Made by a program: the position numbers and the translations under genes. This document shows positions 19,749 through 63,313 of a stretch of 64,000 nucleotides of DNA, one piece after another. Source of the DNA: an uncultured Methanosarcinales archaeon (lineage in GTDB: Archaea > Nanobdellota > Nanobdellia > Woesearchaeales > UBA525); assembly GCA_964589765.1 (NCBI GenBank), contig CAZPUM010000001.1, forward strand, positions 29,118 to 93,117, given 5' to 3'. Under the pieces are notes generated by a model. It ran no database searches, was not told the DNA's origin, and was given only the letters and a program-made list of their open reading frames with translations. Position 1 is the first letter of the stretch. Each line of letters starts with the position of its first letter.

Positions 19749-20723
19749 CTAATAAGGCCTTCTTGTTCCATCTTCGTCCACATGGAAGTCCTCTAGAAAG
19801 TCTTCTACCGTTATAGGGTACGGTTTTTCGTAGAAGTTATGGTCGTACCTGCCCAGAATCTTGAAATCGAAATGTGAAATACCCTGTGCCCAATCCCTGA
19901 GTCGTTCTCTCACATTATCGTTATGGTCTGAATCTAGTATCTCAACACCGTTTTTGTTGACCTTGACAAAATAGGCCCATCCTCTAGCGCCCCCATCGTA
20001 GTCTTGAAACAGTTTGTAACAGTTTCCATCCGCTGAGACTCTGTCATTTCTGGACAACATCCTGATAATATCAGGTTCAGGATTCTCATAGTTAATATCT
20101 TGGGGCCTATGATGGTTACAAAGAACAACTGTTTTCCTGTTGATATAGATTCCCGCGCCTTCCAGTAACCAAGAATAAACGTTGGCCTCCTGTTTTAGGA
20201 AGAAAATGTTTGGCCCAGAACCCCCAACTAACATATCAAAGATTGAGCCCATATTTAGTTGGAATCTGAAACTATCTGCGACATGAATTTTACCACCCAA
20301 ACATTTTGCCCAGCACTCTGCGTCCTCACCGACAAAGCATCTGTAAATATCCCCTCTTCTGATAAGAGCCTCTGATACTTCGTCCACTTTTTGTGGTCGC
20401 TTTGATTTGGCCTTTTTGTATTCCTCGACACGCTCAGCGGGACTCTTACTTTGAAGCCTTTCTGTTTTTGAAGTAGTCAGTAACTCTTTATGGACAACCA
20501 TTGTTTCAACAGTCCCTTCCAGGTCCTTGTCGAAGTTTGGCCTGTATGTCCTGGCATCAATAACTCTATTATCTTTCAAAGAAAATTCAGAAAGCTCTAT
20601 TTCTACAGGAAAACCCGATTCTGGCTCTTCTGCGAACACAACATCTCCATCCGCCGTGGCGTCGAGAACTGCTCTTTCGAGCCTCCTGGCTGAATCCATC
20701 TTCACGTATATTTTCCTGCCCAT
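19749..20723 (-). CDS. Hypothetical protein.
   Basis: About 325 aa with an internal start 25-30 nt downstream of a TATA-like catataaata; no recognised family. Confidence 0.4.
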   Translation of the reverse strand: MGRKIYVKMDSARRLERAVLDATADGDVVFAEEPESGFPVEIELSEFSLKDNRVIDARTYRPNFDKDLEGTVETMVVHKELLTTSKTERLQSKSPAERVEEYKKAKSKRPQKVDEVSEALIRRGDIYRCFVGEDAECWAKCLGGKIHVADSFRFQLNMGSIFDMLVGGSGPNIFFLKQEANVYSWLLEGAGIYINRKTVVLCNHHRPQDINYENPEPDIIRMLSRNDRVSADGNCYKLFQDYDGGARGWAYFVKVNKNGVEILDSDHNDNVRERLRDWAQGISHFDFKILGRYDHNFYEKPYPITVEDFLEDFHVDEDGTRRPY

Positions 20724-20810
20724 GCCATAATAGTAAAAAAGCACTCATATAAATATTCTGTAACAAGAAAATTACATAATAGTTAATAAGGGCAATCCCC
20801 GCACAATATT

Positions 20811-21224
20811 ATGGAACTACTAAAACCCCCTGGTAATTATTGGTACTCGCGGGTCAGATATATAACTGAACCACCAAATGGACTTAAGTTATTGATTGCT
20901 AGTAGAAAAATTTTAGGACATAAGAGAAATAACTTTGAAAGCACCGATGTTTTCTTGTCCGTCATGGGCAATCCTGTCAGAGATTATCGACCAAACAATG
21001 GGCGCTTTGAAGAGATATACGGCATTTATGTTTACAAAGGCGACACAATAGTTACAGCAGGAGATCTTCGATTCAGAGAACTTTTGTATGAAGGACACGA
21101 ATTTTTCTCACACAAAAAAGTTCCCTTAGAAGAAAGAATTGATGCGTTTGTTGCAGAGTTAGTTGCAATGGAAGCAATAAAAGAAAAAGATGTCCGTGTT
21201 GGAAAGATAAAGTGGGGGTTATGA
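20811..21224 (+). CDS. Hypothetical protein.
   Basis: A 137-aa ORF with a TATA-like gttaataa about 25 nt upstream. Confidence 0.35.
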   Translation: MELLKPPGNYWYSRVRYITEPPNGLKLLIASRKILGHKRNNFESTDVFLSVMGNPVRDYRPNNGRFEEIYGIYVYKGDTIVTAGDLRFRELLYEGHEFFSHKKVPLEERIDAFVAELVAMEAIKEKDVRVGKIKWGL

Positions 21225-21311: not shown

Positions 21312-21335
21312 TAGAATAAAAAAAAAGAAAAGTGG
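21312..21335 (-). terminator. Oligo-T archaeal terminator after the five-gene cluster.
   Basis: A(9)GAAAAG on the plus strand equals a T-rich run on the minus strand immediately after the stop of the 21340..22317 gene. Confidence 0.4.
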
Positions 21336-21339
21336 AGAA

Positions 21340-22317
21340 TTAATTCTCCTGAGGAACAGCCTGAATAATGATTGGCTGTTCGATGAACTCTCCGTACCTG
21401 TACTCAAGCTTGATGTCCATTGCGTCCGTATAGACCCTTGTTGCCGGACTACCACCAATTACTGTACATGTTACGGTCTGCGGGCTTCCTGCAAACAGAG
21501 TCACAATACCTGAGCCACCGCCACCAAGTCGTCCACATGATACTGTAGCACTCGGGTCCTGCATACTGACGTCCACATCGACCTTGAACTTATTACTGTT
21601 AGTAAAGCTGGGGTCACAGTTTTCATCAGGTTGCCTGCCGTAGAACTCTCCTGGACCGATGTGGTCTAGAACGAAGTTCACCATGATTCTGTTATCGGCC
21701 ATTGGACTCTGAGATACACCTGTGACATGAACAGGACCGCCTGAATTGTGGAAAGGCCTGTCTCCAACAAGAGTACATATGCTGTTGTCCTGAACGTTCT
21801 CAACAATCTCGTCTTTGAAGCATAGTTGTGTTGTGACATCAGTATGATAGTCGTAACATGCTGTTGCTCTGATTGTTATCAGGTCGTTACCCTGTCTTCT
21901 TCCCTGATAGTTCAGGTTGTCGAAAACAAAGTTTGTCACAAGCCCTCCAATTATTGTGCCATCGAAATTTTTCTGAGCACCACGGACCGGTTCCTGTAAT
22001 GTTTGTTGCATGTCCGCCTCTGTGATTCCGAAGTTTGACGGGTTGATACCCTCCAAACGCATCGTCATGTACGGGTTTTCAGTTCCCGGACCGATGTCGG
22101 CTTCACCGACGTTCTCAACAACTATATTGACGCTGAACGGGTAGTTTCCTCCGTCGTAGACTGCCGGAGGAGGAGCGCCATCCTGTAAGTAAAGCATAAC
22201 TCCAAGGTTTCCTCCAATGAAAGGGTCTACAACAGGGCCTCCCTGACCGCCTCCACCACAACCCGTTAGGATTAGTAGCGAAAGGACTACTGGTATCAAG
22301 AGATTCCTTGTTTTCAT
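21340..22317 (-). CDS. Secreted lipoprotein (lipobox LTGC), paralog family member A.
   Basis: Signal peptide plus Cys lipobox and a G-rich linker. Carries the shared module ...TACYDYHTDVTTQLCFKD...GGPVHVTGV.... Confidence 0.6.
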   Translation of the reverse strand: MKTRNLLIPVVLSLLILTGCGGGGQGGPVVDPFIGGNLGVMLYLQDGAPPPAVYDGGNYPFSVNIVVENVGEADIGPGTENPYMTMRLEGINPSNFGITEADMQQTLQEPVRGAQKNFDGTIIGGLVTNFVFDNLNYQGRRQGNDLITIRATACYDYHTDVTTQLCFKDEIVENVQDNSICTLVGDRPFHNSGGPVHVTGVSQSPMADNRIMVNFVLDHIGPGEFYGRQPDENCDPSFTNSNKFKVDVDVSMQDPSATVSCGRLGGGGSGIVTLFAGSPQTVTCTVIGGSPATRVYTDAMDIKLEYRYGEFIEQPIIIQAVPQEN

Positions 22318-22326
22318 TTTTCCACC

Positions 22327-23646
22327 TTATACTATTCTTTTAATTTGTACTTGTCTCTGTTGTGTCTGACTGTAACCATACCACAACTCTACAACAAGTG
22401 GTGCTTGGTATGCCGACTTAAGGTTGGCAAACTGAAGCGGATATGAACATGTTGTGGTTCCCCTTTCTGTCTTGGGATCCAATCTTATGACTTCAGGACT
22501 ACACTCGATTCCACCACGACCGCCACGGCCTGAAAGACCCAGTGTTCCAACTCTGACGTCACCAAGATAAACAATATTCTTGTGTTCAGGAGTAACTCTT
22601 CCAGGATAGTAGGGACTACACCTTTCAAGGTGACCTGCATCCCAGACCGTTCCGGAACCTACATTCTGAACATTAATTCTGAAAATAATCTTTTGCGGTG
22701 TGTTTTCCTGCTCAATGCTTGTGATTGCTACAGGAGCGCCGTTTCCTCCGTTCCATGTTTTACTCTGAGGATAGCAAACCTTTCTTATGTCAGAGTAAGG
22801 GTCAGGGTCTATACAGACAATCGGGTCTGCGTATGTTGTGTACTGGTAGCACGTTGTCAGCAAGAAACTCTGAACTGTCTGGTCAAGACCAGGAGGCCAG
22901 TTCACAATCTTTCCATTGTAAAGCAGATAATCTGTTTCGCCTCCTGGAAAATTATAGTCGTCCGCCGCCAGGAGGAATTCACGGCCGTTATGAATTCTGT
23001 AGTCAATCCCCGCGAGAAGCGCGATGAAAAGACGGCCGTTCTGATAATATTCAACGTTTCCAAGAATATTGTCTATGTTGAATGAGAACACTGAGCCAGA
23101 GGGGCTATCTGTATAGTCTATACCAATATCGAACTTTGTGGGGTCCCACCAGGATGAACCATGCCTACCAGAGATTGCGTTGATTAAATCAGCCAAACTG
23201 TCTAACCTGACTCTGGCTGTGTCCCCCCCGTAGTTTACCTCTAGGCCGTCACACCTGAATATACCTCCGTAATCTCCAAATCCTATGTTTCCGAATGTGA
23301 ACCCGCATGCACCTATGCCTCCTTCAGTTATACTGATTTCGTCAAAGACAAGTAGACTTGGGTCGAACCCGCTAACAAAAATTCCTCCTCTAGTATACGA
23401 TGCTCCTTTGTTTTGTAGGGCAACTCCGAAAGAGAACTCATTGTTTGAGTTATCCTGGGGACCATAATAGTACAGTCTCTGAGGAAGTCCTTCAAAATAT
23501 GATTCAACTCCTTCCTTACCTTTATAGTAATTTGCGTACTCGTTAATTCTATTATTATCGTTACCGCCTGAACCACACGCCGTCACTAAGAACATAGTTG
23601 AGACTAGCATCAGAAACAACACCAACCTGTTCTTCGTCATCACCAC
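22327..23646 (-). CDS. Secreted lipoprotein (lipobox VTAC), paralog family member B.
   Basis: Signal peptide plus lipobox. Shared module ...TTCYQYTTYADPIVCIDPDPYSD...NGAPVAITSIEQEN. Confidence 0.6.
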   Translation of the reverse strand: MVMTKNRLVLFLMLVSTMFLVTACGSGGNDNNRINEYANYYKGKEGVESYFEGLPQRLYYYGPQDNSNNEFSFGVALQNKGASYTRGGIFVSGFDPSLLVFDEISITEGGIGACGFTFGNIGFGDYGGIFRCDGLEVNYGGDTARVRLDSLADLINAISGRHGSSWWDPTKFDIGIDYTDSPSGSVFSFNIDNILGNVEYYQNGRLFIALLAGIDYRIHNGREFLLAADDYNFPGGETDYLLYNGKIVNWPPGLDQTVQSFLLTTCYQYTTYADPIVCIDPDPYSDIRKVCYPQSKTWNGGNGAPVAITSIEQENTPQKIIFRINVQNVGSGTVWDAGHLERCSPYYPGRVTPEHKNIVYLGDVRVGTLGLSGRGGRGGIECSPEVIRLDPKTERGTTTCSYPLQFANLKSAYQAPLVVELWYGYSQTQQRQVQIKRIV

Positions 23647-23688
23647 GTCGATACACTCCCGTTCTGAATTTTTAAATGTTCCGTCGAT

Positions 23689-25476
23689 TTAGCAAGAGAT
23701 AAAACCAAAGTAATCACCAACAACCAAATCTTGTCTTGAAACAGTTCGTTTTGCGACTGTATTTCCAACATTGCCTCCTACTATCTCCACTTTGTCTCCC
23801 TCTATACTAGTAATAATGTCGCAATGACTTGTAACGCCCGGCGCATAAGGATCAGTGTAACTTATAGGACAGCTGGAGCCTCTACAATTGCATACAATGT
23901 CACCAACTTTAATCTTTGATACCTCTTCAACTCTAAGAGTTCTACAACTACCTTCACCGCCCCTTACTTTTGTAAAGTACTCCCAGTGGTTACAACTTCT
24001 AGGGAAATTAACACCTGATTTACCCATTACATATGATATGTATGCTGCAGACCAAGGAGTTCCTCCACAAGTCCCAGAGCAACCTCCCGCTCTAAAGTAA
24101 TCTGCGACCCTGCCACTCACAGCAGAATCACACTCAGACCTTCCTCCAAAGTAATTATACTCATCAAGAGCTATTTGGCCTATTCGATTTGTTGAAACTG
24201 TTGTTTCCCTTGTTTTATCGCAACAGTAGGTTCCAGGCCTGCAAAGACCGACAATACACTTGCCTGAGCTGGCAAGCGCCAGACACGCATCCCTGCTACA
24301 AGAGCAACTGAACTCTGGATTTATTCTGTCCTGTATCTCTGAAGGCGCTTTATCAGGGTTCTCAGCGTAGTACCTACACTCTGTGTAAACAGTTCCATAA
24401 TCGTCAACAACAGGCTCCTCTCCTTGGTACATGACGCCTGTTTCTTTACCATAAGGTTCTAGGTCATTGGGAGTTATGTCAGGTCTTTCAGTTCCAGGTA
24501 TTCTGTTAACTTCCAGCGTTTTTGTCGTTGCGGTCTTGTACATGTAAGTTAGGTTAACAATCAGAACAGACTGAAAGTTCTGCTTACTGGCATAGATAGG
24601 GTCATTAAGATTATTGCTTGGAACAGTGCACCTAGCTACACCCTCGCCATCAAACATTTTGATTAGTTCACCCGGCTGACACTCAAGTTTGGTGCCCAAT
24701 AACCAAGCGTCCAGCTTAACTGTGTTTATCTGTTCAGAGGGGATTCCCTTAAGGAAACATGCTGTGTCCATAGGAAGTGATGCAGGACCAATAAGTCTGC
24801 CATCCCCAACATCTCTAAAATGAATTGTAAAATGTGGCCTTATTGATTCAGTGCCTAGCAGATTATCAACAACAGGGAAACTCTGAACCTCAATATCGGT
24901 TACTGTTATTGGAGCGCCTTGACCATTCGAGAAAGACACGTCTTGCTGTACACAAGGTTGTTCTCTTTCGTTTGCGTAGTACACATTTGTATCAATACAA
25001 ACATCAGATGTTGCAAGAGTGTTATACTTGTAACAAATACTTGCAGCAAGGTCTGTTTCAGGTTTTTGACGAGTTCCATAAACGGGTTTTACGAAAAATG
25101 AATAGAATGCAGGGACTGAGAATATCTTTTTCTCACCATCAGGCCATCCTAAAGAACGCCCCCTTATCAGTTCGCTCTCAGGATCATGTATGGTGGGCTC
25201 GTACTGCTGGACCTCTACAGGAATGTTAATGTACAACGGGTCTCCTGAGAATGTTATTAGCAAGTCATCATAATGAACGTTTGCCGCACCCATATTGTGA
25301 ACGCCTAATTTTACAGGGAAAGGTGTGTTTTCGTACACGGCATCAGGTGGTGCGTTTGATGCAAACTCAGGCACTAAACCGTTTTGTCCTTCGTAAGGGT
25401 TGTAGTTCTCCATACTTCCCCCCCTACACGAAGTGAGCATAAGAACCATTACTAACATGAGAATCCAGAATCTCAT
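23689..25476 (-). CDS. Secreted lipoprotein (lipobox LTSC), paralog member C, with a Cys-rich linker and a C-terminal NlpC/P60-CHAP-like cysteine peptidase domain.
   Basis: Shared module ...SICYKYNTLATSDVCIDTN...QGAPITVTDIEVQ. C-terminal GGCSG...AAYISYVMGKSGVNFPRS (Cys motif), GDIV, SHCDIITSIEGDKVEIVGGNVGNTV (His motif). Confidence 0.6.
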   Translation of the reverse strand: MRFWILMLVMVLMLTSCRGGSMENYNPYEGQNGLVPEFASNAPPDAVYENTPFPVKLGVHNMGAANVHYDDLLITFSGDPLYINIPVEVQQYEPTIHDPESELIRGRSLGWPDGEKKIFSVPAFYSFFVKPVYGTRQKPETDLAASICYKYNTLATSDVCIDTNVYYANEREQPCVQQDVSFSNGQGAPITVTDIEVQSFPVVDNLLGTESIRPHFTIHFRDVGDGRLIGPASLPMDTACFLKGIPSEQINTVKLDAWLLGTKLECQPGELIKMFDGEGVARCTVPSNNLNDPIYASKQNFQSVLIVNLTYMYKTATTKTLEVNRIPGTERPDITPNDLEPYGKETGVMYQGEEPVVDDYGTVYTECRYYAENPDKAPSEIQDRINPEFSCSCSRDACLALASSGKCIVGLCRPGTYCCDKTRETTVSTNRIGQIALDEYNYFGGRSECDSAVSGRVADYFRAGGCSGTCGGTPWSAAYISYVMGKSGVNFPRSCNHWEYFTKVRGGEGSCRTLRVEEVSKIKVGDIVCNCRGSSCPISYTDPYAPGVTSHCDIITSIEGDKVEIVGGNVGNTVAKRTVSRQDLVVGDYFGFISC

Positions 25477-27272
25477 CTGACCATCACCTGTGTTGCAGCC
25501 TCAATTGTGTAACTGTAATAAGCCACAGCTATAATGCTTCTCTCTGTTTTGTCTGCCTCGCTGATTAATGGGTACAAATCAGCACCTTCACGCACACCAA
25601 GTTTACAAGTTATGCTTGTATAAGTGGTAATTGGACCTGCATTCTTGTTTTCAAAGACATAGTTAGTATAATCTGGTTCGAATGGGTCAGGCTCCTGTCT
25701 ACACTCGTTAGGATTGTTCTCGCACCTATCACATTCGTAAAGTTCGAACGGTTCAGGCACCTTGAGTTCTATTTTGTTAACTTGATTTAGTTGACCGCTC
25801 CCCCACCCAGGGTCTAGAGTTAAACCGATTCTTGTTCCTGCGGGGATTGGGTTTTCCTCGGCCGGATTAATCCTGATTGGCTGAGGAGTGCCTCCCATTC
25901 CTATCTTTAATGGTCCCGCCGTGAAAATGGCGGTTGGATTAGGATCGATATCCAGAACATCTCTTACATCCAGGCCTTGCCTGGCAAGGTTTCTTGCCCT
26001 TTCATCATCTACAAAAGAGAATGTTATGTATGCCCAGGTCTGGAAAGGGAATGTTGCGAAAGATTTGATTCTGTAAGTTCCCGTTTCATCTATAGCACCA
26101 AATTTACACTCATATACCCCTGCAGTACCAAGAACAATATCGAGTATTTCGGGATCGACACTTGCCTCTTCAGTAATGGCTCGCCTATCAATCACACAAG
26201 ACGGAACAACCTTCAAAGAGTCTTCGTCATCTATGAATGTTTTTGCGTAGATTGTTCCGTAAACTGATAAGGGCATGTCTGTCGTGATAGTTCTATCAAT
26301 AGGCCTTAAATCTTCAAACTTAACACCTATGTCTGCCTCAGCATTATCTTCTACCCGCCCAGTATAATAAGCACCAGGGTTCAGGGTTTCATTTATTGTT
26401 CGGCCTATGCCTGAACCTATGTTTGTGAAAGCCTCGACAAAAGTATCAAACATATTTATTGCCGAGCCAGAAACATCCAACCCTCCAACCCCTACGATGG
26501 GCATGGTTGACAATGTCGGGAAGAAAATCAGACCAAAGAATAACACGATGAAGGATATCATCAATAATATTTTGTATATTCTGAATATCTTTGCTGCAGT
26601 TTCACTTGCCTGAGACAGTCTTTGTAACATGTAGATTGGCCAAACAGGAACAATGACTGCCAAGAAAAACAAAGCTCCGTGAATATTCTCGCTCCATGTG
26701 AACGCCTCTGCAACAGCAGGCATACAGTACATTACCGCACCTGCCAAAGAAACAACAAAAATTGACTTCTTACTCGTGTCACCAATTGCAACAATATAGG
26801 TTAGTCCTAAAGCGGACATCACAGCAAAGTATGTTATGAATGAGGCTGTTGAAGCACCAAATCTGAAAACAAAAATTACAAACAAGTGTATAAGTATTGA
26901 AATTATGAAAAAAAGAGTCGGGCCTCCTGTAAGAGCGTCAGCTGTCACGTTACCCCCTACGTTCAGTAGTTTTTTACCACCTGCCTTTCCCACTGCCCCC
27001 GCACCTTTTGCCAGACCTGAAATAGCATCTTTCAGAGTTGAACGCGCCTCGCTTATCCCTTTTTCAGCCTTTAAGTCATCTGAATGAGAATCACCTGATG
27101 GAACAGAAGGAGTGGCAATTGACGAAGAACCTTCTCCAGTTCCTCCGTCCGTTTTTACATCAATATCTAGCTCCACTTTGTTTCCATCTTTACTTACTTC
27201 AGAACCAACAGGACCTTTTAGCTTAGCCTCAACTTCCTCTCTTAGCTTCTCTTCTTCGTCAGCCATGCTCAC
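25473..27272 (-). CDS. Polytopic membrane protein (about 5-6 TM helices) with an acidic/K-rich cytoplasmic N-terminus and an extracytoplasmic C-terminal domain of about 330 aa.
   Basis: Hydrophobic helices span aa about 125-330. The C-terminal domain carries a related Cys-containing motif (YECDRCENNPNECRQEPDPFEPDY...GPITTYTSITC). Overlaps flanking genes by 4 bp. Confidence 0.55.
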   Translation of the reverse strand: MSMADEEEKLREEVEAKLKGPVGSEVSKDGNKVELDIDVKTDGGTGEGSSSIATPSVPSGDSHSDDLKAEKGISEARSTLKDAISGLAKGAGAVGKAGGKKLLNVGGNVTADALTGGPTLFFIISILIHLFVIFVFRFGASTASFITYFAVMSALGLTYIVAIGDTSKKSIFVVSLAGAVMYCMPAVAEAFTWSENIHGALFFLAVIVPVWPIYMLQRLSQASETAAKIFRIYKILLMISFIVLFFGLIFFPTLSTMPIVGVGGLDVSGSAINMFDTFVEAFTNIGSGIGRTINETLNPGAYYTGRVEDNAEADIGVKFEDLRPIDRTITTDMPLSVYGTIYAKTFIDDEDSLKVVPSCVIDRRAITEEASVDPEILDIVLGTAGVYECKFGAIDETGTYRIKSFATFPFQTWAYITFSFVDDERARNLARQGLDVRDVLDIDPNPTAIFTAGPLKIGMGGTPQPIRINPAEENPIPAGTRIGLTLDPGWGSGQLNQVNKIELKVPEPFELYECDRCENNPNECRQEPDPFEPDYTNYVFENKNAGPITTYTSITCKLGVREGADLYPLISEADKTERSIIAVAYYSYTIEAATQVMVR

Positions 27273-27281
27273 CTCAAACCA

Positions 27282-28553
27282 CTATACTATCTCGAGCTTG
27301 AGCTCGGCCACATCCAGGCGGTCAACGTGCGGCGCAATCTGAATAGTGTTCGGGCCAGGATTTATTATTCCTGGGTCAATGACCGCCTGCCATACATAAT
27401 CCTGCGTGCTGAAACTCTGAACAAATCCGTTCACCACAACCTCGCCTGATTTTACATTTCGATAATCTGTGAACGTCATGGTAAGAACCAATTGACCATA
27501 GCCAAGGTCGATTCCCTCATACATTTCCATTGGCAGATTGAAGTAATACACAGGGTAATCAGACTGTCGCATCTCTAAGGTCAACTTGATGTTGTCAACG
27601 ACATACTGTCCTCCCTGGACAGCAGCCATGAAAAGTCTGTTTTCTCCAACCCTCAGATACTCTTTTGGAACATCTGTCTTGAACCGGACTCCACAGTCCA
27701 CAAGACCTGTGTAGAGTATGTTTGGTACTGTGAATGTGTTATTGTCAGAATCCCTGACAAGCCTGTCGTTTAAATGAACGACCAACCTGCCTGCGTTGCT
27801 CGGGTCACAGTCAGGAATAAATTCAAGCTGAGCTGCTCTGAAAGCACCTATCTCTTCCTCAGAAACACTGAAAGTTTGTTCACTCACACTTCCTGACTGG
27901 TCAATAACGTCCGCACTTATCTGAATGTTTCTTAGCTTATACGCATTTGGTTGCCAGAATGCAAGACCTGTATCGTCTGTCTGGAGAGTTATAACATTCT
28001 CTCCTTCAACAAAGTAGTCTGTTGGCAACTGAATTGGTGGCGGGCTTGGTTCTCTAATGGGCCTTTCGTAAATCTGGTTTCCATTGATAAGAATCCTTAA
28101 AGGTCCTGAACCCGCCTCTTCTAAACTGAAGCTCAAAAGATAGTTTCCACTCCCCTCTTTTCCCGGAGTGAATGGTATCGACATGTCTTTCTTTGCAAAA
28201 ATACCATTCTTTACAATTCCTGAGTCTATAGATTTCACAACCTGTGTGTTGATTCTTGTGAATATTGTTGAAGTAGGAATATTATGTTCTTGTATCGGAC
28301 TCCTCAGAAATCTCAGAGTCCCCGGGGTCTCTGTAAGTACCAAAACTGGGCCATACTGCGTGAAGCTTCCGCCTCCTGAACCACCTCCCGACCAGGACTG
28401 GCCACCAAACCCCCCATCACCACCAAAAAGCAACTGGTCACGTTCGGCAGGAGGAAGGAATAAGATATAGAGCAGAAGGAAACCTGCTATGATTGCAATC
28501 AAGACAGCTGAGCCCGAAGCAGTCTGTCCCCGTCGAGAGCCTCCACCTAACAT
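27282..28553 (-). CDS. Signal-anchored (single N-terminal TM) surface protein with a Gly-rich linker and repeated beta-rich segments.
   Basis: N-terminal TM AVLIAIIAGFLLLYILFL; GGDGGFGGQSWSGGGSGGGS linker; three xVxxNGxx-type repeats. Confidence 0.5.
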   Translation of the reverse strand: MLGGGSRRGQTASGSAVLIAIIAGFLLLYILFLPPAERDQLLFGGDGGFGGQSWSGGGSGGGSFTQYGPVLVLTETPGTLRFLRSPIQEHNIPTSTIFTRINTQVVKSIDSGIVKNGIFAKKDMSIPFTPGKEGSGNYLLSFSLEEAGSGPLRILINGNQIYERPIREPSPPPIQLPTDYFVEGENVITLQTDDTGLAFWQPNAYKLRNIQISADVIDQSGSVSEQTFSVSEEEIGAFRAAQLEFIPDCDPSNAGRLVVHLNDRLVRDSDNNTFTVPNILYTGLVDCGVRFKTDVPKEYLRVGENRLFMAAVQGGQYVVDNIKLTLEMRQSDYPVYYFNLPMEMYEGIDLGYGQLVLTMTFTDYRNVKSGEVVVNGFVQSFSTQDYVWQAVIDPGIINPGPNTIQIAPHVDRLDVAELKLEIV

Positions 28554-28609
28554 ATTTAAAACCCCGACGAAACAGCATATATAAAAGTTTCCGTTGTTTT
28601 CCTCGAGAG

Positions 28610-29632
28610 ATGCGAATCACCCATAAGGACCTAAAACAGGGAACCATTGCGGTTCAAACACAAACTCCCGACGATTTATGGTATTTGACTACCATAGTTA
28701 ACGAGGGAGATATAGTGCTGGGTAGCTCTGAGTACAAATTCAAACTAGGCGGTTCAGATGCCAAGCAGAAGATTGTGAAAAAAAAGGTCACAGTTGAGCT
28801 GGAAGTGGAGAAAGTCGAACTTTCAGGAAATATAACTCGGATTTCAGGAGTTGTGACAGGAGGTTCAGAGGATGTTCCCAGGGGAAGCCACCACGGAATT
28901 GACATTGAGGAAGGTTCCAGAATAACAATCAAAAAGGAAAGATGGCTGGATTTCCAGCTCGAAAAACTAAAAGAGGCCTGTAACTCTGGCGGTTCTGGTA
29001 CAGTACTCTGTCTTTTTGACAGAGAGTTTGCCAGAATTCTCAGACTAAAGCCTAACGGGGTGGATGTTTTATCGGAGATAAAGGGCGATGTTCCCAAGAA
29101 AGGTGTTGATGAAGAGAAACAACACAGGTTTTACAAGGAGATAGCAGAAAGACTTGAAACAGTTGAGGCCCAGCAAATTCTTGCTGCCAGTCCGGCTTTC
29201 TGGAAACAGTACTTAGAGAAAGAACTTTCCGCTGAGACGAAGAATAAGACCATATTCACTTCAGTCAGCGGAACAGATGATACTGCTGTAAAAGAATTGT
29301 TGAAATCAAAAGAGTTACAGCAGGTTCTACAAAACGAACGTTCTGCCCGTGAAGAGAACATGCTCGAAGATGTTATGTCCGCCTTGGGAAAAGACATGCT
29401 CGTTTACGGCAAGGACGATGTCAAGGCGGTTCTATCAGAGGGTAACTGTCTCGCGCTTTATGTTTCTGAGAATGAGATTGTGAAAGCGCGAGCCGAGAAC
29501 AGGTATCCCTCTCTTGAGGCTATCATGAAAACCGCAGGCGACCTCGATGCAAAGGTCCGTCTGTTCTCAACACGGGAACCTATGGTTAAGATTGACGGGC
29601 TTGGCGGAGTTGTGGTGGTCAAGAGATGGTGA
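28610..29632 (+). CDS. pelA: Pelota (Dom34) ribosome-rescue factor.
   Basis: N-terminus MRITHKDLKQGTIAVQTQTPDDLWYL matches the Pelota signature; eRF1-like three-domain length about 340 aa. Internal ATG chosen 28 nt after a TATA (atatataaaag). Confidence 0.8.
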   Translation: MRITHKDLKQGTIAVQTQTPDDLWYLTTIVNEGDIVLGSSEYKFKLGGSDAKQKIVKKKVTVELEVEKVELSGNITRISGVVTGGSEDVPRGSHHGIDIEEGSRITIKKERWLDFQLEKLKEACNSGGSGTVLCLFDREFARILRLKPNGVDVLSEIKGDVPKKGVDEEKQHRFYKEIAERLETVEAQQILAASPAFWKQYLEKELSAETKNKTIFTSVSGTDDTAVKELLKSKELQQVLQNERSAREENMLEDVMSALGKDMLVYGKDDVKAVLSEGNCLALYVSENEIVKARAENRYPSLEAIMKTAGDLDAKVRLFSTREPMVKIDGLGGVVVVKRW

Positions 29633-39778: not shown

Positions 39779-41443
39779 ATGAAGAAGGGAAGCCCTCCTA
39801 TGCCTGTCTTATTGGTTTTGGCCACGTCTCTCTTAGTTGCGGGCATTCTGACCACTTACACTGCAGGAATCTATGCCTCTACAACGGTGTTTGGAGTGGG
39901 AATTCTACTGTTCTTCGGCATAGCACTTTACAATACAAAGATAGATGCGGGAAAACCCACAGCAATAGTCAGCATAACCGTTGCTGTGGTGTTGGCCATA
40001 ATTATGGCATCAACATTGTTCACAATTGTCCAGACTACCATTCCTGTCTGCGGTGATGGCATTTGCGCACCGTACGAGTGCGACGAGAATTGTGAAGACT
40101 GCACTCCTGACGATTGTCTAAACGGCATATGTCAAAGACCACTTGAGACTTGCGAGAACAGCCCTGACTGTTCTTGTCCGGGCGGAACTATCTGTGTTCC
40201 GGAAAGACCGGGAGTGGACCCTACAGGTTGCTTCTGGATTAAGTGTGGCGACAATTATTGCGACAAAGGAGAGTCCTCAAAAAACTGTTGTTCCGATTGT
40301 AAATGCGAAGCAGGGTATGAATGTAGACAAAATCAATGTTTCTTTTTACCGCCTAAGATGGCTTTCAACACTTTCCTTTTCAGCGATGAAATCGGTGCCA
40401 GCACTTTAGCTGCCAACCCCAACCTGAGAAATGAATCAGGAACCCCCCACCCCTTGGTGGCATTGGATTTGACAAACCAAGGAAGCTTCGCATCAGATGT
40501 TAGAGTCAGATTCAAGCTAGATGAGGTTTTTGAAGAGAGTTTTTCAGTGGGTTCTATGGATAAAGGAGACAACAAAGATGTTTTGTGGTTCCTTGACGAA
40601 ACCCCTCTTTATCTCTCGATTGTAGAAGATATTGATACAAACATAACTGTGACTGTAGAGTACACGACAACTGAAAATATTAGGAACTCTTTCAGCGTTA
40701 ACTATCCAATCAAAATTTTAAACAGAGGCAAACTTGATGATATTGGGGAGCTCGCATACTACGTAACCAAGGATATCAAACCAAATGGTAAAACCATAGA
40801 TATGATTTGGGAAGAATACAGAAAACAACTAGAACTCAGACCTAATGATGGAATTATTCAGTATCCTTTAGAGACTCTTATTTATGGCGGAGGCGACGAT
40901 AAAGACTTAGCCGTTTTCTTTGCCAGCGCTTTTTATGGTGCGGGAAAAATTACCCAGTTTGCCAACACAACTGATGGGATGATGCTTTGGGTAAGGTACA
41001 GAGGTAATTACGAAGTACTTGATACAAGACACGTTGACTTAAATTTTGCTAAGGCGCTTGACTCGCGACCGGAACGTACCACATTGAGCAGTTTCGATGA
41101 GGTTTGGGAAATGCACAGCATAGAACCGACAACATTTGACGCGAGAATGCTTCCTGGAATGAAAATAATCTCCTCATCAGAGGTTAGCCAGGAATGTGAC
41201 TGTGTAAGCTATTGCGGTCAAAAGGTTGAAGCAATCCACAAGATTATCAACCGAGGCTTGGTTAAATCAAAACTCTGCGCCAAATCTACAATAGAACTTA
41301 ACGATGAAATTCTCAACCAAAAAGAATGGTGTTTTTCTGTAAGCCCCGAACATTTAATCTCACTAGAACACCTATGGAAAAGCAACTCAACATGTCAAGA
41401 TGTTGATGTAGAAATCAAAGTGTGGAACGCTACCTTTTCATGA
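39779..41443 (+). CDS. Membrane-anchored (3 N-terminal TM) Cys-rich surface protein with CGDGIC-type repeats and a C-terminal globular domain.
   Basis: Three TM helices. Repeats CGDGICAPYECDENCEDCTPDDC.../...CKCEAGYEC. The C-terminal region has transglutaminase-like spacing (AVFFASAFYGAGKI...MMLWVRY) without an obvious catalytic Cys. Confidence 0.55.
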   Translation: MKKGSPPMPVLLVLATSLLVAGILTTYTAGIYASTTVFGVGILLFFGIALYNTKIDAGKPTAIVSITVAVVLAIIMASTLFTIVQTTIPVCGDGICAPYECDENCEDCTPDDCLNGICQRPLETCENSPDCSCPGGTICVPERPGVDPTGCFWIKCGDNYCDKGESSKNCCSDCKCEAGYECRQNQCFFLPPKMAFNTFLFSDEIGASTLAANPNLRNESGTPHPLVALDLTNQGSFASDVRVRFKLDEVFEESFSVGSMDKGDNKDVLWFLDETPLYLSIVEDIDTNITVTVEYTTTENIRNSFSVNYPIKILNRGKLDDIGELAYYVTKDIKPNGKTIDMIWEEYRKQLELRPNDGIIQYPLETLIYGGGDDKDLAVFFASAFYGAGKITQFANTTDGMMLWVRYRGNYEVLDTRHVDLNFAKALDSRPERTTLSSFDEVWEMHSIEPTTFDARMLPGMKIISSSEVSQECDCVSYCGQKVEAIHKIINRGLVKSKLCAKSTIELNDEILNQKEWCFSVSPEHLISLEHLWKSNSTCQDVDVEIKVWNATFS

Positions 41444-61574: not shown

Positions 61575-62387
61575 GTGGACTGGAAAATAATCTTGTTAAT
61601 CATAGTAGGAATAATTCTGCTCATAGCATTCCTATTCAGAAAACAGATTGGACATTGGTCCTCCGCGCTGGTCCATGACTATGTTTATGACTGGGGTCTT
61701 TCAACACTTGACAACTTAATAGGAGGTTTCGCAGGTCTGGATGTTGGAGACTGGGTTGGAGCTTTTCTTATATTCAGAGGTGAGAAAAAAATTATTGGAA
61801 CCCTGCCTGCATTAATTGTTGCATGGGAGGCCACCAACTTTATTCCACTCAGTTTTATTCCTGTGGTCGGAGAGGGAATTGAAGTTGTAACTAACATTAT
61901 ACCTGCATCGACCATCACAAGGTTTTTAGTCGCAAAATATGGCCCAGCTGAACGAATGGAAGTGCGCTTGATGGAAGAAGGCGCTGTTATGAAACAAGAA
62001 AACATCAATGTCCCTGACTTTGAAGGGGCTCTAAACCATATCAAGGAGTTAATTGACAAGAACAACCCTGTCGAGGCATACGCTATGGAGAAGGCAATTG
62101 ACAAAGCTGTCAGCCAGAAACTCAGAATCAAGATTGACAAACTTGTCAATCAAGTAGACGGTGAAATACAGCAGTTGATTCAACAAGACCCTGAAGGAAC
62201 TGATGACCAGCTCGAGGTTCTGACAAAAGGGATAGAACTGGCCAGAACACACCTTAATGATGCCAAGCTTTTTGAAAAAAAGAAAAATTTCGCCAGCGCA
62301 ATCAAAAAAGCAAAAGAGGCTCAGAGCGTGCTCAGTCAGTCTGTTGACGCTTTCAATGAATCACTGAGCATGGAGAAAGCCGCATGA
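61575..62387 (+). CDS. Hypothetical membrane protein.
   Basis: An N-terminal TM helix plus two or three more hydrophobic segments and a C-terminal coiled coil. A TATA-like tcttataaatc sits about 25 nt upstream. Confidence 0.4.
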   Translation: MDWKIILLIIVGIILLIAFLFRKQIGHWSSALVHDYVYDWGLSTLDNLIGGFAGLDVGDWVGAFLIFRGEKKIIGTLPALIVAWEATNFIPLSFIPVVGEGIEVVTNIIPASTITRFLVAKYGPAERMEVRLMEEGAVMKQENINVPDFEGALNHIKELIDKNNPVEAYAMEKAIDKAVSQKLRIKIDKLVNQVDGEIQQLIQQDPEGTDDQLEVLTKGIELARTHLNDAKLFEKKKNFASAIKKAKEAQSVLSQSVDAFNESLSMEKAA

Positions 62388-63313
62388 AACCTCTGATTTT
62401 ACTAACGATTTTGTTGCTGATAACCTCTTGTACCACAGAGAGTTTGCCCGAGGAGAAAACAATAATTGGACCTAATGATATCAAAATCCAGGAGAGCAGA
62501 AATCTGCAGAAAGGGGTCGCTGGAATCACTCCTAAAAACAATTACAGACCGAGCGACGAAGACTGGAATGATTACTTCTCAATGCTCGGAGAGTATGGCC
62601 CTCTGTGGGGAGTCTATGTTAACATAGAGGACAGCTTACAAGAGGGCATACCTCAACAGGTGCGTCTTGCTTACGAACTGGCAAAAATGCGTCCAGTCAC
62701 ACCTGTTGTTGCTCTGGGTTTCCAGAACGATATAGAAAAAGGATTTTTTGAACTGAACGGTCTTAGGTATCAGGAAACCGTTTTAGCTGTCGCAAAAGAG
62801 TACCACCCCGCCTATCTTGGTCTTGGTATTGATGTTAACAGGATTCCTGACGAAGAGTTTGACAACTACCTTAATTGGTACAAAGATACATACAATGAAG
62901 TGAAAAAAGTCAGTCCCTCCACTAAAATATTTCCAATCATTCAGTACGAACATTTACTTAACAGTCAGGAAGATGACTGGCTAGAGGAACTCGAAATGGA
63001 TGTTTTTGCCATAACCTTGTATCCTTTCCTTGCTTTTGATTCACCCGCTGATATTCCTCGTGACTATCTACCTAATGATGTGCCAATCTTAATCACGGAA
63101 ACTGGCTGGCCATCTAGCGAGGTTGGTCGAGTCCAGCCAGCACAGACTGAATATATTGACTGGCTTTCAACAACACCGACAAATGTTGAAGCTGTTTTGT
63201 GGAGTTTTTCGCACGACCCTATGTTAGGAGATAAAACGTGGGATTCAATCAGCCTAAAGTTCTCTAATGGAACTATGAAACCCGCGTTCAATAAATGGCA
63301 GAGTTTGAATTAA
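62384..63313 (+). CDS. Secreted lipoprotein (lipobox ITSC) with a GH5/GH17-like (beta-glucanase-type) TIM-barrel glycoside hydrolase signature.
   Basis: Signal peptide plus lipobox. Catalytic-nucleophile motif ILITETGWPS typical of GH17/GH5 clan A. Putative acid/base Glu region upstream. Confidence 0.5.
   Translation: MKPLILLTILLLITSCTTESLPEEKTIIGPNDIKIQESRNLQKGVAGITPKNNYRPSDEDWNDYFSMLGEYGPLWGVYVNIEDSLQEGIPQQVRLAYELAKMRPVTPVVALGFQNDIEKGFFELNGLRYQETVLAVAKEYHPAYLGLGIDVNRIPDEEFDNYLNWYKDTYNEVKKVSPSTKIFPIIQYEHLLNSQEDDWLEELEMDVFAITLYPFLAFDSPADIPRDYLPNDVPILITETGWPSSEVGRVQPAQTEYIDWLSTTPTNVEAVLWSFSHDPMLGDKTWDSISLKFSNGTMKPAFNKWQSLN

What the first reader, a model, noticed from the sequence alone, without database searches (positions are those of the whole stretch)
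21340..28553. Five-gene cluster of lipobox-anchored and signal-anchored surface proteins: a candidate cell-surface or host-interaction module of unknown type
Five co-directional ORFs are packed with overlaps or junctions of 10 bp or less (22317/22327, 23646/23689, 25473/25476, 27272/27282) and end in an oligo-T terminator. Three products begin with signal peptide plus lipobox (LTGC, VTAC, LTSC). One is signal-anchored with a Gly-rich stalk. One is a 5-6 TM membrane protein exporting a domain of about 330 aa. None matches a named secretion, pilus or S-layer component that I recognise. Three proteins share a Cys-containing module, indicating in-locus paralogy. One carries a papain-like NlpC/P60-CHAP peptidase domain. 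The remainder of the window is a reduced, housekeeping-dominated archaeal genome. In that setting a dedicated multi-protein surface apparatus with a cell-wall-type hydrolase suggests attachment to, or attack on, another cell. This is the best candidate for an undescribed system in the window.
Basis: partly seen in the sequence, partly recalled or inferred. Interest (0 to 1): 0.8.

Follow-up and report, generated by a model that had tools for sequence, protein, structure and literature searches.

The report
Conserved Woesearchaeal five-gene surface module
This is a five-gene operon for membrane- and lipid-anchored surface proteins that is kept in the same order in dozens of Woesearchaeota species, matches no described system, and in this lineage carries a swappable bacterial-cell-wall-cutting enzyme, so it is a concrete lead on how these uncultured archaea deal with bacteria.

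Summary
Five co-directional minus-strand genes (A 27282-28553, B 25473-27272, C 23689-25476, D 22327-23646, E 21340-22317) form one tight unit between a TATA box and a hairpin plus oligo-T. C, D and E are full-length paralogous lipobox proteins (hhalign probability 99.7-100%). B has five hydrophobic segments plus an ectodomain that may be a fourth copy. A has an N-terminal anchor, a Gly-rich stalk and three CBM-like jelly-rolls.

The order A-B-C-D-E is never permuted in 77 non-redundant loci. All named homologs come from Woesearchaeota/Nanoarchaeota MAGs. D and E are as conserved as the neighbouring Pelota gene.

Only C's tail matches a Pfam family: DUF2272, a papain-like NlpC/P60-CHAP relative with a Ser nucleophile. 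Orthologs carry SLT, 3D or M23 domains at the same position, and no other kind of domain was detected there.

Fold searches gave only generic Ig-like or CBM-like matches, with no support for S-layer, BcsB, fusexin or pilus membership.

Best reading: a lineage-wide surface platform that binds glycans and, in this clade, cleaves bacterial murein. Complex formation and the target are inferred. Murein hydrolases in Woesearchaeota were already reported; I found no description of the operon.

The parts
28577..28586 (-). TATA-like box (TTTTATATAT) about 28 nt upstream of the ATG of gene A. It lies in the 56-bp divergent spacer shared with Pelota, and implies a leaderless or very short-leader transcript.
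   Evidence: Sequence read. Pelota most likely starts at the ATG at 28610, because the eRF1_1 domain begins at aa 40 of the longer ORF. Promoter function is inferred.
27282..28553 (-). Gene A (423 aa). N-terminal anchor, Gly-rich disordered stalk (aa 44-64), and three jelly-roll CBM-like domains (about aa 70-218, 223-328 and 335-422).
28437..28535 (-). A aa 7-39: RRGQTASGS followed by a hydrophobic helix and the conserved YILFLPPxxR motif. It is either a signal anchor or a class III (prepilin-like) signal peptide.
   Evidence: N-termini of about 60 orthologs are listed and conservation is shown. The motif [KR]x?[GA]Q occurs in 28 of 56 orthologs. Cleavage was not tested.
25473..27272 (-). Gene B (599 aa). 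Acidic, variable N-terminal region, five hydrophobic segments, and a C-terminal ectodomain.
   Evidence: It is the fastest-evolving member, with 26% median identity. Orthologs range from 496 to 981 aa, and a divergent, more polytopic form occurs in 11 loci.
26481..26936 (-). B aa 113-264: block of five hydrophobic segments, the membrane base.
   Evidence: Hydropathy scan. Sequence conservation is poor and no invariant polar residue is present. PDB profile hits (Piezo, GPCRs) are compositional.
25476..26405 (-). B aa 290-599: Cys-containing ectodomain, possibly a fourth copy of the C/D/E module.
   Evidence: hhalign gives collinear but weak matches to C (E 0.026) and to E (E 0.016 and 0.01). 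Four Cys are invariant. The relationship is not established.
23689..25476 (-). Gene C (595 aa). Lipobox LTSC (aa 14-17), shared two-beta-sandwich module (to about aa 330), Cys-rich linker (aa 367-470), and a DUF2272 hydrolase domain.
23740..24066 (-). C aa 471-579: DUF2272 (PF10030), a papain-like NlpC/P60-CHAP-type domain. Candidate Ser476 lies in PWSAAY and candidate His551 in SHCD.
   Evidence: Pfam E 7.7e-20, 72 bits against cutoff 27. Both motifs are conserved in the L009 ortholog. The family's Ser nucleophile is described in PMC10318531. Activity was not tested.
24067..24378 (-). C aa 367-470: Cys-rich linker between the module and the hydrolase domain. It is present in nearly all C orthologs, including those without a hydrolase.
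   Evidence: Conserved Cys columns in A4 and A7. No Pfam match.
22327..23646 (-). Gene D (439 aa; 437 aa if it starts at the ATG at 23640). Lipobox VTAC, tandem Ig-like module with an insertion of about 110 aa. It is the most conserved member.
   Evidence: AlphaFold pLDDT 87.2, pTM 0.83. 203 homologs. 34 invariant columns, including 9 Cys. Median identity 41.6%, against 37.5% for Pelota.
23251..23307 (-). D aa 114-132: loop bounded by two invariant Cys, rich in Gly and aromatic residues (CGFTFGNIGFGDYGGIFRC). Function is unexplained.
   Evidence: Column frequencies. pLDDT is below 50 for aa 111-113 and 115-140.
21340..22317 (-). Gene E (325 aa). Lipobox LTGC and the minimal version of the shared module. 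It is duplicated in tandem in one subclade.
   Evidence: The E-E arrangement is seen in at least 10 loci.
21318..21349 (-). Terminator: hairpin GGAGAATTAATTCTCC overlapping the stop codon of E, followed by a T-run.

Best explanation
The five genes encode one cell-surface assembly that belongs to the core gene set of Woesearchaeota.

Proposed roles:
- B is the integral-membrane base.
- C, D and E are paralogous lipoproteins. Each is made of two Ig/CARDB-like beta-sandwiches held by conserved disulfides, and they are tethered through a lipobox cysteine.
- A is held by an N-terminal helix. It projects three carbohydrate-binding-module-like jelly-rolls on a flexible Gly-rich stalk.
- In the lineage of this window, C carries a Cys-rich spacer and a DUF2272 papain-like hydrolase at its outer end. 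Sister lineages carry a lytic transglycosylase (SLT or 3D) or an M23 endopeptidase at the same place.

Proposed mechanism: A binds a glycan on a neighbouring cell or on cell-wall debris, and the enzyme on C cuts bacterial peptidoglycan locally. This would allow close contact with a bacterial partner or prey, or release of muropeptides.

Shown:
- gene content and anchoring signals
- paralogy of C, D and E
- predicted folds
- conservation of gene order
- swapping of murein-hydrolase domains on C

Inferred:
- that the five proteins form one physical complex
- that A binds glycan
- that the target is bacterial murein on a living cell
For: Operon anatomy is supported.

The order A-B-C-D-E is unpermuted. 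There are 47 complete clusters among 77 non-redundant loci, and the remaining loci are truncated by contig ends.

Across the same 30 genomes, D (41.6% median identity) and E (37.0%) are as conserved as Pelota (37.5%) and FmrO (40.3%).

C, D and E are paralogs at 99.7-100% hhalign probability. Lipoboxes are conserved in about 90-94% of orthologs. AliA, the archaeal lipoprotein-lipidation enzyme, is reported in DPANN (PMC12462473).

C tails are all murein hydrolases:
- window DUF2272; L004 and L007 SLT; L009 SLT plus DUF2272; L006 and L056 3D; L067 M23
- among 69 long C-type representatives from 1.8 billion proteins (the window protein included), the only Pfam families found were SLT (8), 3D (6) and DUF2272 (5)

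As far as I know, archaea of this group make no murein themselves (general knowledge).
Against: - No direct evidence exists that the five proteins interact.
- The hydrolase is absent from most C orthologs, so murein cleavage cannot be the ancestral core function.
- The slow evolution of D and E is unusual for host-recognition proteins.
- DUF2272 has a Ser in place of the papain Cys, and its activity is unproven (PMC10318531).
- No Woesearchaeon is cultured as far as I know, and no host is known.
- There are no expression data.
Confidence: 0.5

Rival explanations
1. This is a core envelope scaffold. The four paralogous Ig-like ectodomains (B, C, D, E) and A build or anchor the cell's own surface layer, as S-layer or S-layer-anchoring proteins. 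The hydrolase on C would be a secondary decoration, for example defence against bacteria.
Against: S-layer proteins usually diverge beyond recognition above genus level, whereas D keeps 34-61% identity across the group. Candidate DPANN S-layer proteins are single proteins of about 1000 aa with 13-17 N-glycosylation sequons. These five proteins have 4 sequons where about 15 are expected. Anchoring by an N-terminal lipobox differs from the C-terminal helix or C-terminal lipid anchor that I recall as usual for archaeal S-layer proteins. There is no fold match above domain level.
Confidence: 0.25
2. This is a nutrient-scavenging 'utilisome'. It would be a surface complex that binds and degrades free cell-wall or other glycan debris and feeds the products to a transporter. 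It would be analogous in logic to Sus-like lipoprotein complexes and involve no living partner cell.
For: The set combines co-operonic lipoproteins with beta-sandwich domains, a CBM-like protein, a lipoprotein enzyme and a polytopic membrane protein. Another lipobox protein with a glycosidase-like motif lies in the same window at 62384-63313. Woesearchaeota are described as recyclers of cellular compounds (PMC9723730).
Against: No transporter family was detected. The membrane block of B is poorly conserved, has no invariant polar residues and matches no transporter family. No ATPase or solute-binding protein lies in the cluster. Most lineages have no enzyme on C.
Confidence: 0.15
3. This is a type IV filament or bindosome-like structure. 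A would be a class III signal peptide protein processed by a prepilin peptidase and assembled with the others into a surface fibre or pseudopilus.
For: The N-terminus of A, RRG|QTAS followed by a hydrophobic helix, fits the published class III motif as I recall it. K/R-G/A-Q recurs in half of the orthologs. CBM-like cargo on a pilin-like anchor resembles the sugar-binding proteins of bindosomes (bioRxiv 10.64898/2026.04.22.720090).
Against: Among the genes I scanned, no assembly ATPase, platform protein or prepilin peptidase was found in or beside the cluster, either in the window or in the three related loci that came with pre-computed annotation. Half of the orthologs lack the basic residue at position -2. 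A plain signal anchor explains the same sequence.
Confidence: 0.05
4. This is a membrane-engaging or fusogen-like apparatus. The disulfide-bounded Gly/aromatic loop of D would insert into a partner membrane to bridge or fuse cells, for example for lipid or metabolite uptake.
Confidence: 0.05

Closest known systems
Large extracellular murein lytic-transglycosylase proteins of Woesearchaeota and Pacearchaeota (fam00969 in Castelle et al. 2021, PMC8204110; GH23 genes in Vigneron et al. 2022, PMC9723730)
   Same: They are extracellular, bacterial-type peptidoglycan hydrolase domains in the same archaeal group. They are read as evidence for interaction with bacteria.
   Different: Those are single proteins of up to about 3000 aa, reported as a family. 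Here the hydrolase is a swappable C-terminal domain (DUF2272, SLT, 3D or M23) on one member of a conserved five-gene operon whose core has no annotation. I found no description of the operon in the papers I searched.
NlpC/P60-CHAP papain-like cell-wall hydrolases, specifically Pfam DUF2272 (PF10030). The family review groups it with amidase effectors such as Tse1.
   Same: The C tail scores 72 bits against PF10030 (cutoff 27). It keeps the helix-start Ser and the downstream His, at positions that I take (by analogy with CHAP/NlpC-P60) to be those of the family's Ser-His pair.
   Different: It is fused to an archaeal lipoprotein module through a Cys-rich linker. The family is described as mostly proteobacterial. 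Substrate and activity are untested.
Sus-like surface lipoprotein complexes of Bacteroidota (SusC/D/E/F/G)
   Same: The logic is the same: several co-operonic surface lipoproteins built from beta-sandwich or CBM-like domains, plus a lipid-anchored hydrolase.
   Different: There is no SusC-type TonB-dependent transporter and no SusD-type protein. The cell has a single membrane. There is no sequence or fold homology beyond generic beta-sandwiches. The enzyme set points to murein as the putative substrate.
Archaeal S-layer proteins with tandem Ig-like domains (for example SlaA/SlaB, or the Nanobdella candidate MJ1_0160)
   Same: They are extracellular tandem Ig-like beta-sandwiches anchored to the membrane.
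   Different: This set consists of four short heterologous paralogs instead of one large protein. Anchoring is by an N-terminal lipobox. Sequons are depleted. Evolution is slow. There is no evidence of a lattice.
BcsB of bacterial cellulose synthase. NCBI gives this name to one A homolog, P0136.
   Different: There is no Pfam or NCBIfam BcsB match for A or for P0136. A shows only beta-sandwich domains, whereas BcsB, from memory, also has flavodoxin-like domains. The anchor is N-terminal, whereas BcsB's is C-terminal (from memory). No BcsA-like synthase lies nearby.

Membership tests
DUF2272 (PF10030), papain-like NlpC/P60-CHAP group | Pfam model score above the gathering threshold | tested here: met
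   72 bits against cutoff 27, E 7.7e-20, aa 471-579. TIGR02594 gives only 20.7 bits against cutoff 70.55.
DUF2272 (PF10030), papain-like NlpC/P60-CHAP group | Catalytic Ser (in place of Cys) at a helix start, plus His | tested here: inconclusive
   PW-S476-AAY and S-H551-CD are present and conserved in the L009 ortholog. The family's Ser is described in PMC10318531. No structure or HMM-column mapping was done.
Lipobox lipoproteins (archaeal, AliA-dependent) | [LVI][ASTVI][GAS]C after an n-region and h-region at the N-terminus | tested here: met
   LTSC, VTAC and LTGC are present. The Cys is invariant in the D, C and E alignments. A lipobox-like motif occurs in 57/63, 71/76 and 73/78 orthologs.
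Lipobox lipoproteins (archaeal, AliA-dependent) | Lipidation machinery (AliA, arCOG02177) in the genome; lipid modification of the Cys | not testable with these tools
   Only 64 kb of the genome is available. AliA is reported for DPANN in general (PMC12462473).
Class III signal peptide (type IV pilin-like) proteins | [KR][GA] cleavage motif followed by small residues and a hydrophobic helix near the N-terminus | tested here: inconclusive
   A of the window has RRG|QTAS followed by a helix. Only 28 of 56 orthologs keep [KR]x?[GA]Q, and many have L or S at position -2.
Class III signal peptide (type IV pilin-like) proteins | Associated prepilin peptidase, assembly ATPase and platform protein | tested here: not met
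   None is present in the cluster or among the scanned flanking genes, in the window or in the related loci L001-L003. The rest of the genome was not seen.
Archaeal S-layer protein | Forms a regular two-dimensional lattice; highly abundant; usually many N-glycosylation sequons | not testable with these tools
   Lattice formation and abundance cannot be tested here. Sequons: 4 observed against about 15 expected over the five proteins.
BcsB (PF03170) | Match to the BcsB family model; two CBD plus flavodoxin-like domain pairs; C-terminal anchor; BcsA partner | tested here: not met
Fusexin / HAP2 class II fusogens | Three-domain class II fold recognisable by structure comparison | tested here: not met
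CARDB / Ig-like beta-sandwich (PF07705) | Pfam match or a clear structural match of the sandwich domains | tested here: inconclusive
Carbohydrate-binding module-like jelly-roll (A) | Jelly-roll fold matching CBM or galactose-binding-like domains; ligand-binding residues | tested here: inconclusive

The most novel reading that the evidence does not exclude
The five proteins form a previously undescribed kind of archaeal cell-surface machine, specific to Woesearchaeota. It would be a heteromeric platform of four paralogous disulfide-locked Ig-like ectodomains on a polytopic base. It would use a glycan-binding arm (A), a membrane- or ligand-inserting Gly/aromatic loop (D) and interchangeable murein hydrolases (C) to dock onto and breach bacterial cells. 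That would be the molecular basis of an archaeon-on-bacterium episymbiosis or predation.
Probability: 0.2. Interest if true: 0.9.

Novelty: new variant of a known kind. Interest (0 to 1): 0.62.

Why it matters
Woesearchaeota are among the most widespread uncultured archaea. Whether they live on bacteria is an open question that so far rests on scattered murein-hydrolase genes.

This locus gives that question a defined, testable object:
- It is an operon conserved across the lineage.
- All of its products are surface-anchored.
- One member serves as a carrier for four different classes of peptidoglycan-cleaving domains.

It also adds five well-populated protein families, with about 1,500 cluster representatives for the shared module alone. 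High-confidence models exist for two of the families, and the core of all five lacks annotation.

The locus further provides a set of strongly conserved lipobox proteins in DPANN archaea, which are natural substrates for studying the recently found archaeal lipoprotein pathway.

Tried and rejected
- Exact look-ups of window proteins C and D (P0001) in the contig index found nothing. The source contig itself could not be retrieved, so context came from orthologous loci.
- The homolog search for B returned only 8 hits, because low-complexity words saturated the candidate list. B orthologs were taken from the fetched loci instead.
- The afdb50 fold library was unavailable.
- Sequence and profile searches of the PDB gave nothing meaningful for C, the C tail, D, B, E or A. 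The Piezo and GPCR hits for B are transmembrane composition.
- NCBIfam gave nothing for the core proteins. The 'BcsB' name that NCBI attached to one A homolog could not be reproduced.
- A relationship of A to the C/D/E module was tested and not found (hhalign E 0.2-0.3).
- A relationship of the B ectodomain to the module remains only suggestive (E 0.01-0.03).
- A mobile-element or viral origin was considered and rejected. GC content is like the rest of the window, and synteny with Pelota, FmrO, TrmB and PheRS is conserved across species.
- Bacterial-type promoter scanning is uninformative for an archaeon.


Full report
**1. What is there**

Five ORFs lie head to tail on the minus strand:

| Gene | Coordinates | Length |
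|---|---|---|
| A | 27282-28553 | 423 aa |
| B | 25473-27272 | 599 aa |
| C | 23689-25476 | 595 aa |
| D | 22327-23646 | 439 aa |
| E | 21340-22317 | 325 aa |

The junctions are +9, -4, +42 and +9 bp.

A TTTTATATAT box lies about 28 nt upstream of the ATG of A. It sits in a 56-bp spacer shared with the divergently transcribed Pelota gene. The stop codon of E sits in a hairpin that is followed by a T-run. GC content is the same as in the rest of the window.

The window otherwise encodes housekeeping functions:
- proteasome-type AAA ATPase and tRNA methyltransferases
- TldD/PmbA
- the Suf system
- Pelota, FmrO, TrmB and PheRS
- SecY and an EMC3-like insertase
- primase and XPF

**2. The proteins**

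C, D and E start with a signal peptide and a lipobox (LTSC, VTAC, LTGC). They are paralogs over their whole length:
- blastp E 3e-12 and 3e-9
- hhalign probability 99.7-100%

The D model (117-sequence alignment, pLDDT 87, pTM 0.83) consists of beta-sandwich domains plus an insertion of about 110 residues that C and E lack.
- Foldseek finds only arrays of tandem Ig-like domains, such as integrin legs, PrgB, AspA, CupB6 and cohesin dyads, with TM-scores of 0.17 or less.
- So the domain fold is ordinary, but the protein as a whole has no solved relative.
- Nine Cys are invariant in 117 D sequences, the lipobox Cys included.

B has an acidic, variable N-terminal region, five hydrophobic segments (aa 113-264) and a C-terminal domain of about 310 residues with four invariant Cys. 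That domain aligns collinearly but weakly with C and E (hhalign E 0.01-0.03). A fourth copy of the module is possible but not shown.

A is unrelated to the others. Its N-terminus, RRGQTASGS followed by a hydrophobic helix and YILFLPPxxR, is conserved. It is followed by a disordered Gly-rich stalk and three jelly-roll domains (pLDDT 89).
- Pfam CBM-like and CBM_35 models hit 16 and 12 of 60 family members, mostly below threshold.

The only family match above threshold in the whole cluster is DUF2272 (PF10030) at C aa 471-579. A survey of papain-like enzymes places DUF2272 with NlpC/P60, CHAP and amidase effectors. It notes a conserved Ser in place of the catalytic Cys (PMC10318531). C has PW-S476-AAY and S-H551-CD, both conserved in an ortholog.

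**3. Conservation**

D has 203 database homologs. All that carry a name come from Woesearchaeota/Nanoarchaeota MAGs, and none has a Pfam domain.

Context was examined in 77 non-redundant loci: 76 retrieved by scanning one genome per GTDB species, plus loci from the contig look-ups.
- 47 loci carry the complete cluster in the order A-B-C-D-E, some with tandem extra copies of D or E.
- The rest are truncated by contig ends, except one locus with no B-like ORF between A and C. No locus shows a different order.
- In 11 loci B is too divergent for phmmer, but a polytopic ORF of 513-814 aa sits in its place.
- Pelota and FmrO lie divergently upstream in most loci.

Median identity to the window over the same 30 genomes:

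| Protein | Median identity |
|---|---|
| D | 41.6% |
| FmrO | 40.3% |
| Pelota | 37.5% |
| E | 37.0% |
| A | 33.3% |
| C | 29.8% |
| B | 25.9% |

Two of the surface proteins therefore evolve as slowly as translation-related housekeeping genes.

A full scan of 1.84 billion representatives with the C module found 1,475 proteins at E up to 0.001. Ten of the more divergent or longest listed hits were looked up. The four that carry an organism name are from Woesearchaeota.

**4. The swappable enzyme**

In the lineages closest to the window, the C ortholog carries a different peptidoglycan hydrolase at the same C-terminal position, after a conserved Cys-rich linker:

| Locus | Domain on C |
|---|---|
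| window | DUF2272 |
| L004, L007 | SLT |
| L009 | SLT plus DUF2272 |
| L006, L056 | 3D |
| L067 (distant) | Peptidase_M23 |

Among 69 long C-type representatives from the global library (the window protein included), the only Pfam families detected at E up to 1e-4 were SLT (8), 3D (6) and DUF2272 (5). Every recognisable accessory domain is a murein-cleaving domain. Most C orthologs carry only the Cys-rich tail.

**5. Interpretation**

I read the co-transcribed layout, the never-permuted order, the anchoring of every product and the repeated paralogy as signs of one surface assembly. That the proteins form one physical complex is an inference.

The CBM-like arm on a flexible stalk, together with the interchangeable murein hydrolases, fits a platform that binds a glycan surface and cuts bacterial cell wall.

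This agrees with earlier genomic proposals that some Woesearchaeota attach to or prey on bacteria (PMC8204110; PMC9723730; PMC12352652). It adds a defined, conserved genetic context to those proposals.

Lipid anchoring is plausible because the archaeal lipidation enzyme AliA is reported in DPANN (PMC12462473).

Two facts argue that the ancestral role is more basic than attack. D and E evolve slowly, and most lineages have no hydrolase on C.

- **Envelope-scaffold or S-layer rival.** It cannot be excluded. Against it:
  - S-layer proteins normally diverge quickly.
  - DPANN S-layer candidates are single, large, sequon-rich proteins.
  - These five proteins are sequon-poor, with 4 observed against about 15 expected.
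- **Debris-scavenging 'utilisome' rival.** It lacks a recognisable transporter.
- **Type IV filament rival.** It rests only on the N-terminus of A and lacks any assembly genes nearby.

**6. Novelty and score**

The folds are ordinary, and murein hydrolases in this group were already known. The conserved five-gene architecture, the four or five unannotated families and the domain swapping on C appear in none of the papers I could search.

I rate it a new variant of a known kind, namely surface-anchored adhesin and cell-wall-hydrolase equipment of DPANN archaea. I give about 20% probability that it is a new kind of surface machine. Interest is 0.62.

Noticed in passing
window 62384-63313 (+): A 309-aa ORF with another clear lipobox (LLLITSC). 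It has the motif ILITETGWPSS, which from memory resembles the catalytic-nucleophile signature of GH17-type glycosidases. No Pfam hit even at E 0.1.
   Followed up: partly
window 39779-41443 (+): A 554-aa protein with N-terminal hydrophobic helices and a dense Cys-rich stretch (CGDGICAPYECDENCEDCTPDDC...). It resembles the Cys-rich inserts of long A orthologs and the linker of C. No Pfam match. It lies next to SecY and an EMC3-like gene.
   Followed up: partly
window 23251-23307 (D aa 114-132): A 17-residue Gly/aromatic loop between two invariant cysteines, conserved in most D orthologs and modelled as disordered. It may be a membrane- or ligand-inserting element; its function is unknown.
   Followed up: partly
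L002 12443-13477, L011, L012, L014, L019-L021, L041, L054 (E2); L022, L024 (second D): Tandem duplication of E in one subclade and of D in two loci, so the paralog family is still expanding inside the cluster.
   Followed up: partly
L031 2232-10388 and 10 similar loci (L026, L035, L036, L039, L049, L057, L065, L069, L076, L077): A divergent form of the cluster. A is 560-600 aa with two Cys-rich repeats (CP.NC...DKDCCF..S.NNYWCD) inserted, and B has many more hydrophobic segments. In L031, the one locus read in full, B is 769 aa and the upstream neighbours look like topoisomerase VI subunits rather than Pelota, judged by eye from the translations.
   Followed up: partly
window 21340-28553: N-glycosylation sequons are depleted in all five surface proteins, with 4 observed against about 15 expected. 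Pelota and FmrO are not depleted.
   Followed up: no
window 28493-29632 (+): The mechanical Pelota ORF starts at a TTG that overlaps gene A. The real start is probably the ATG at 28610 (MRITHKDL), because the eRF1_1 domain begins at aa 40.
   Followed up: yes
L005, L010, L015, L022, L024 and other loci: About 20 public records titled 'uncultured Methanosarcinales archaeon' carry this cluster, which is otherwise seen only in Woesearchaeota/Nanoarchaeota records. The organism labels of those MAGs look unreliable.
   Followed up: no
P0136 (A homolog, contig JAAOYH010000033): NCBI names this protein 'cellulose biosynthesis cyclic di-GMP-binding regulatory protein BcsB'. No Pfam or NCBIfam model supports that name.
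   Followed up: yes
window 19749-20744 (-) and 20811-21224 (+): Two ORFs directly downstream of E have no Pfam match and are not found next to the cluster in other species.
   Followed up: no
window 1-64000: No tRNA gene and no Rfam family at gathering score in 64 kb.
   Followed up: no
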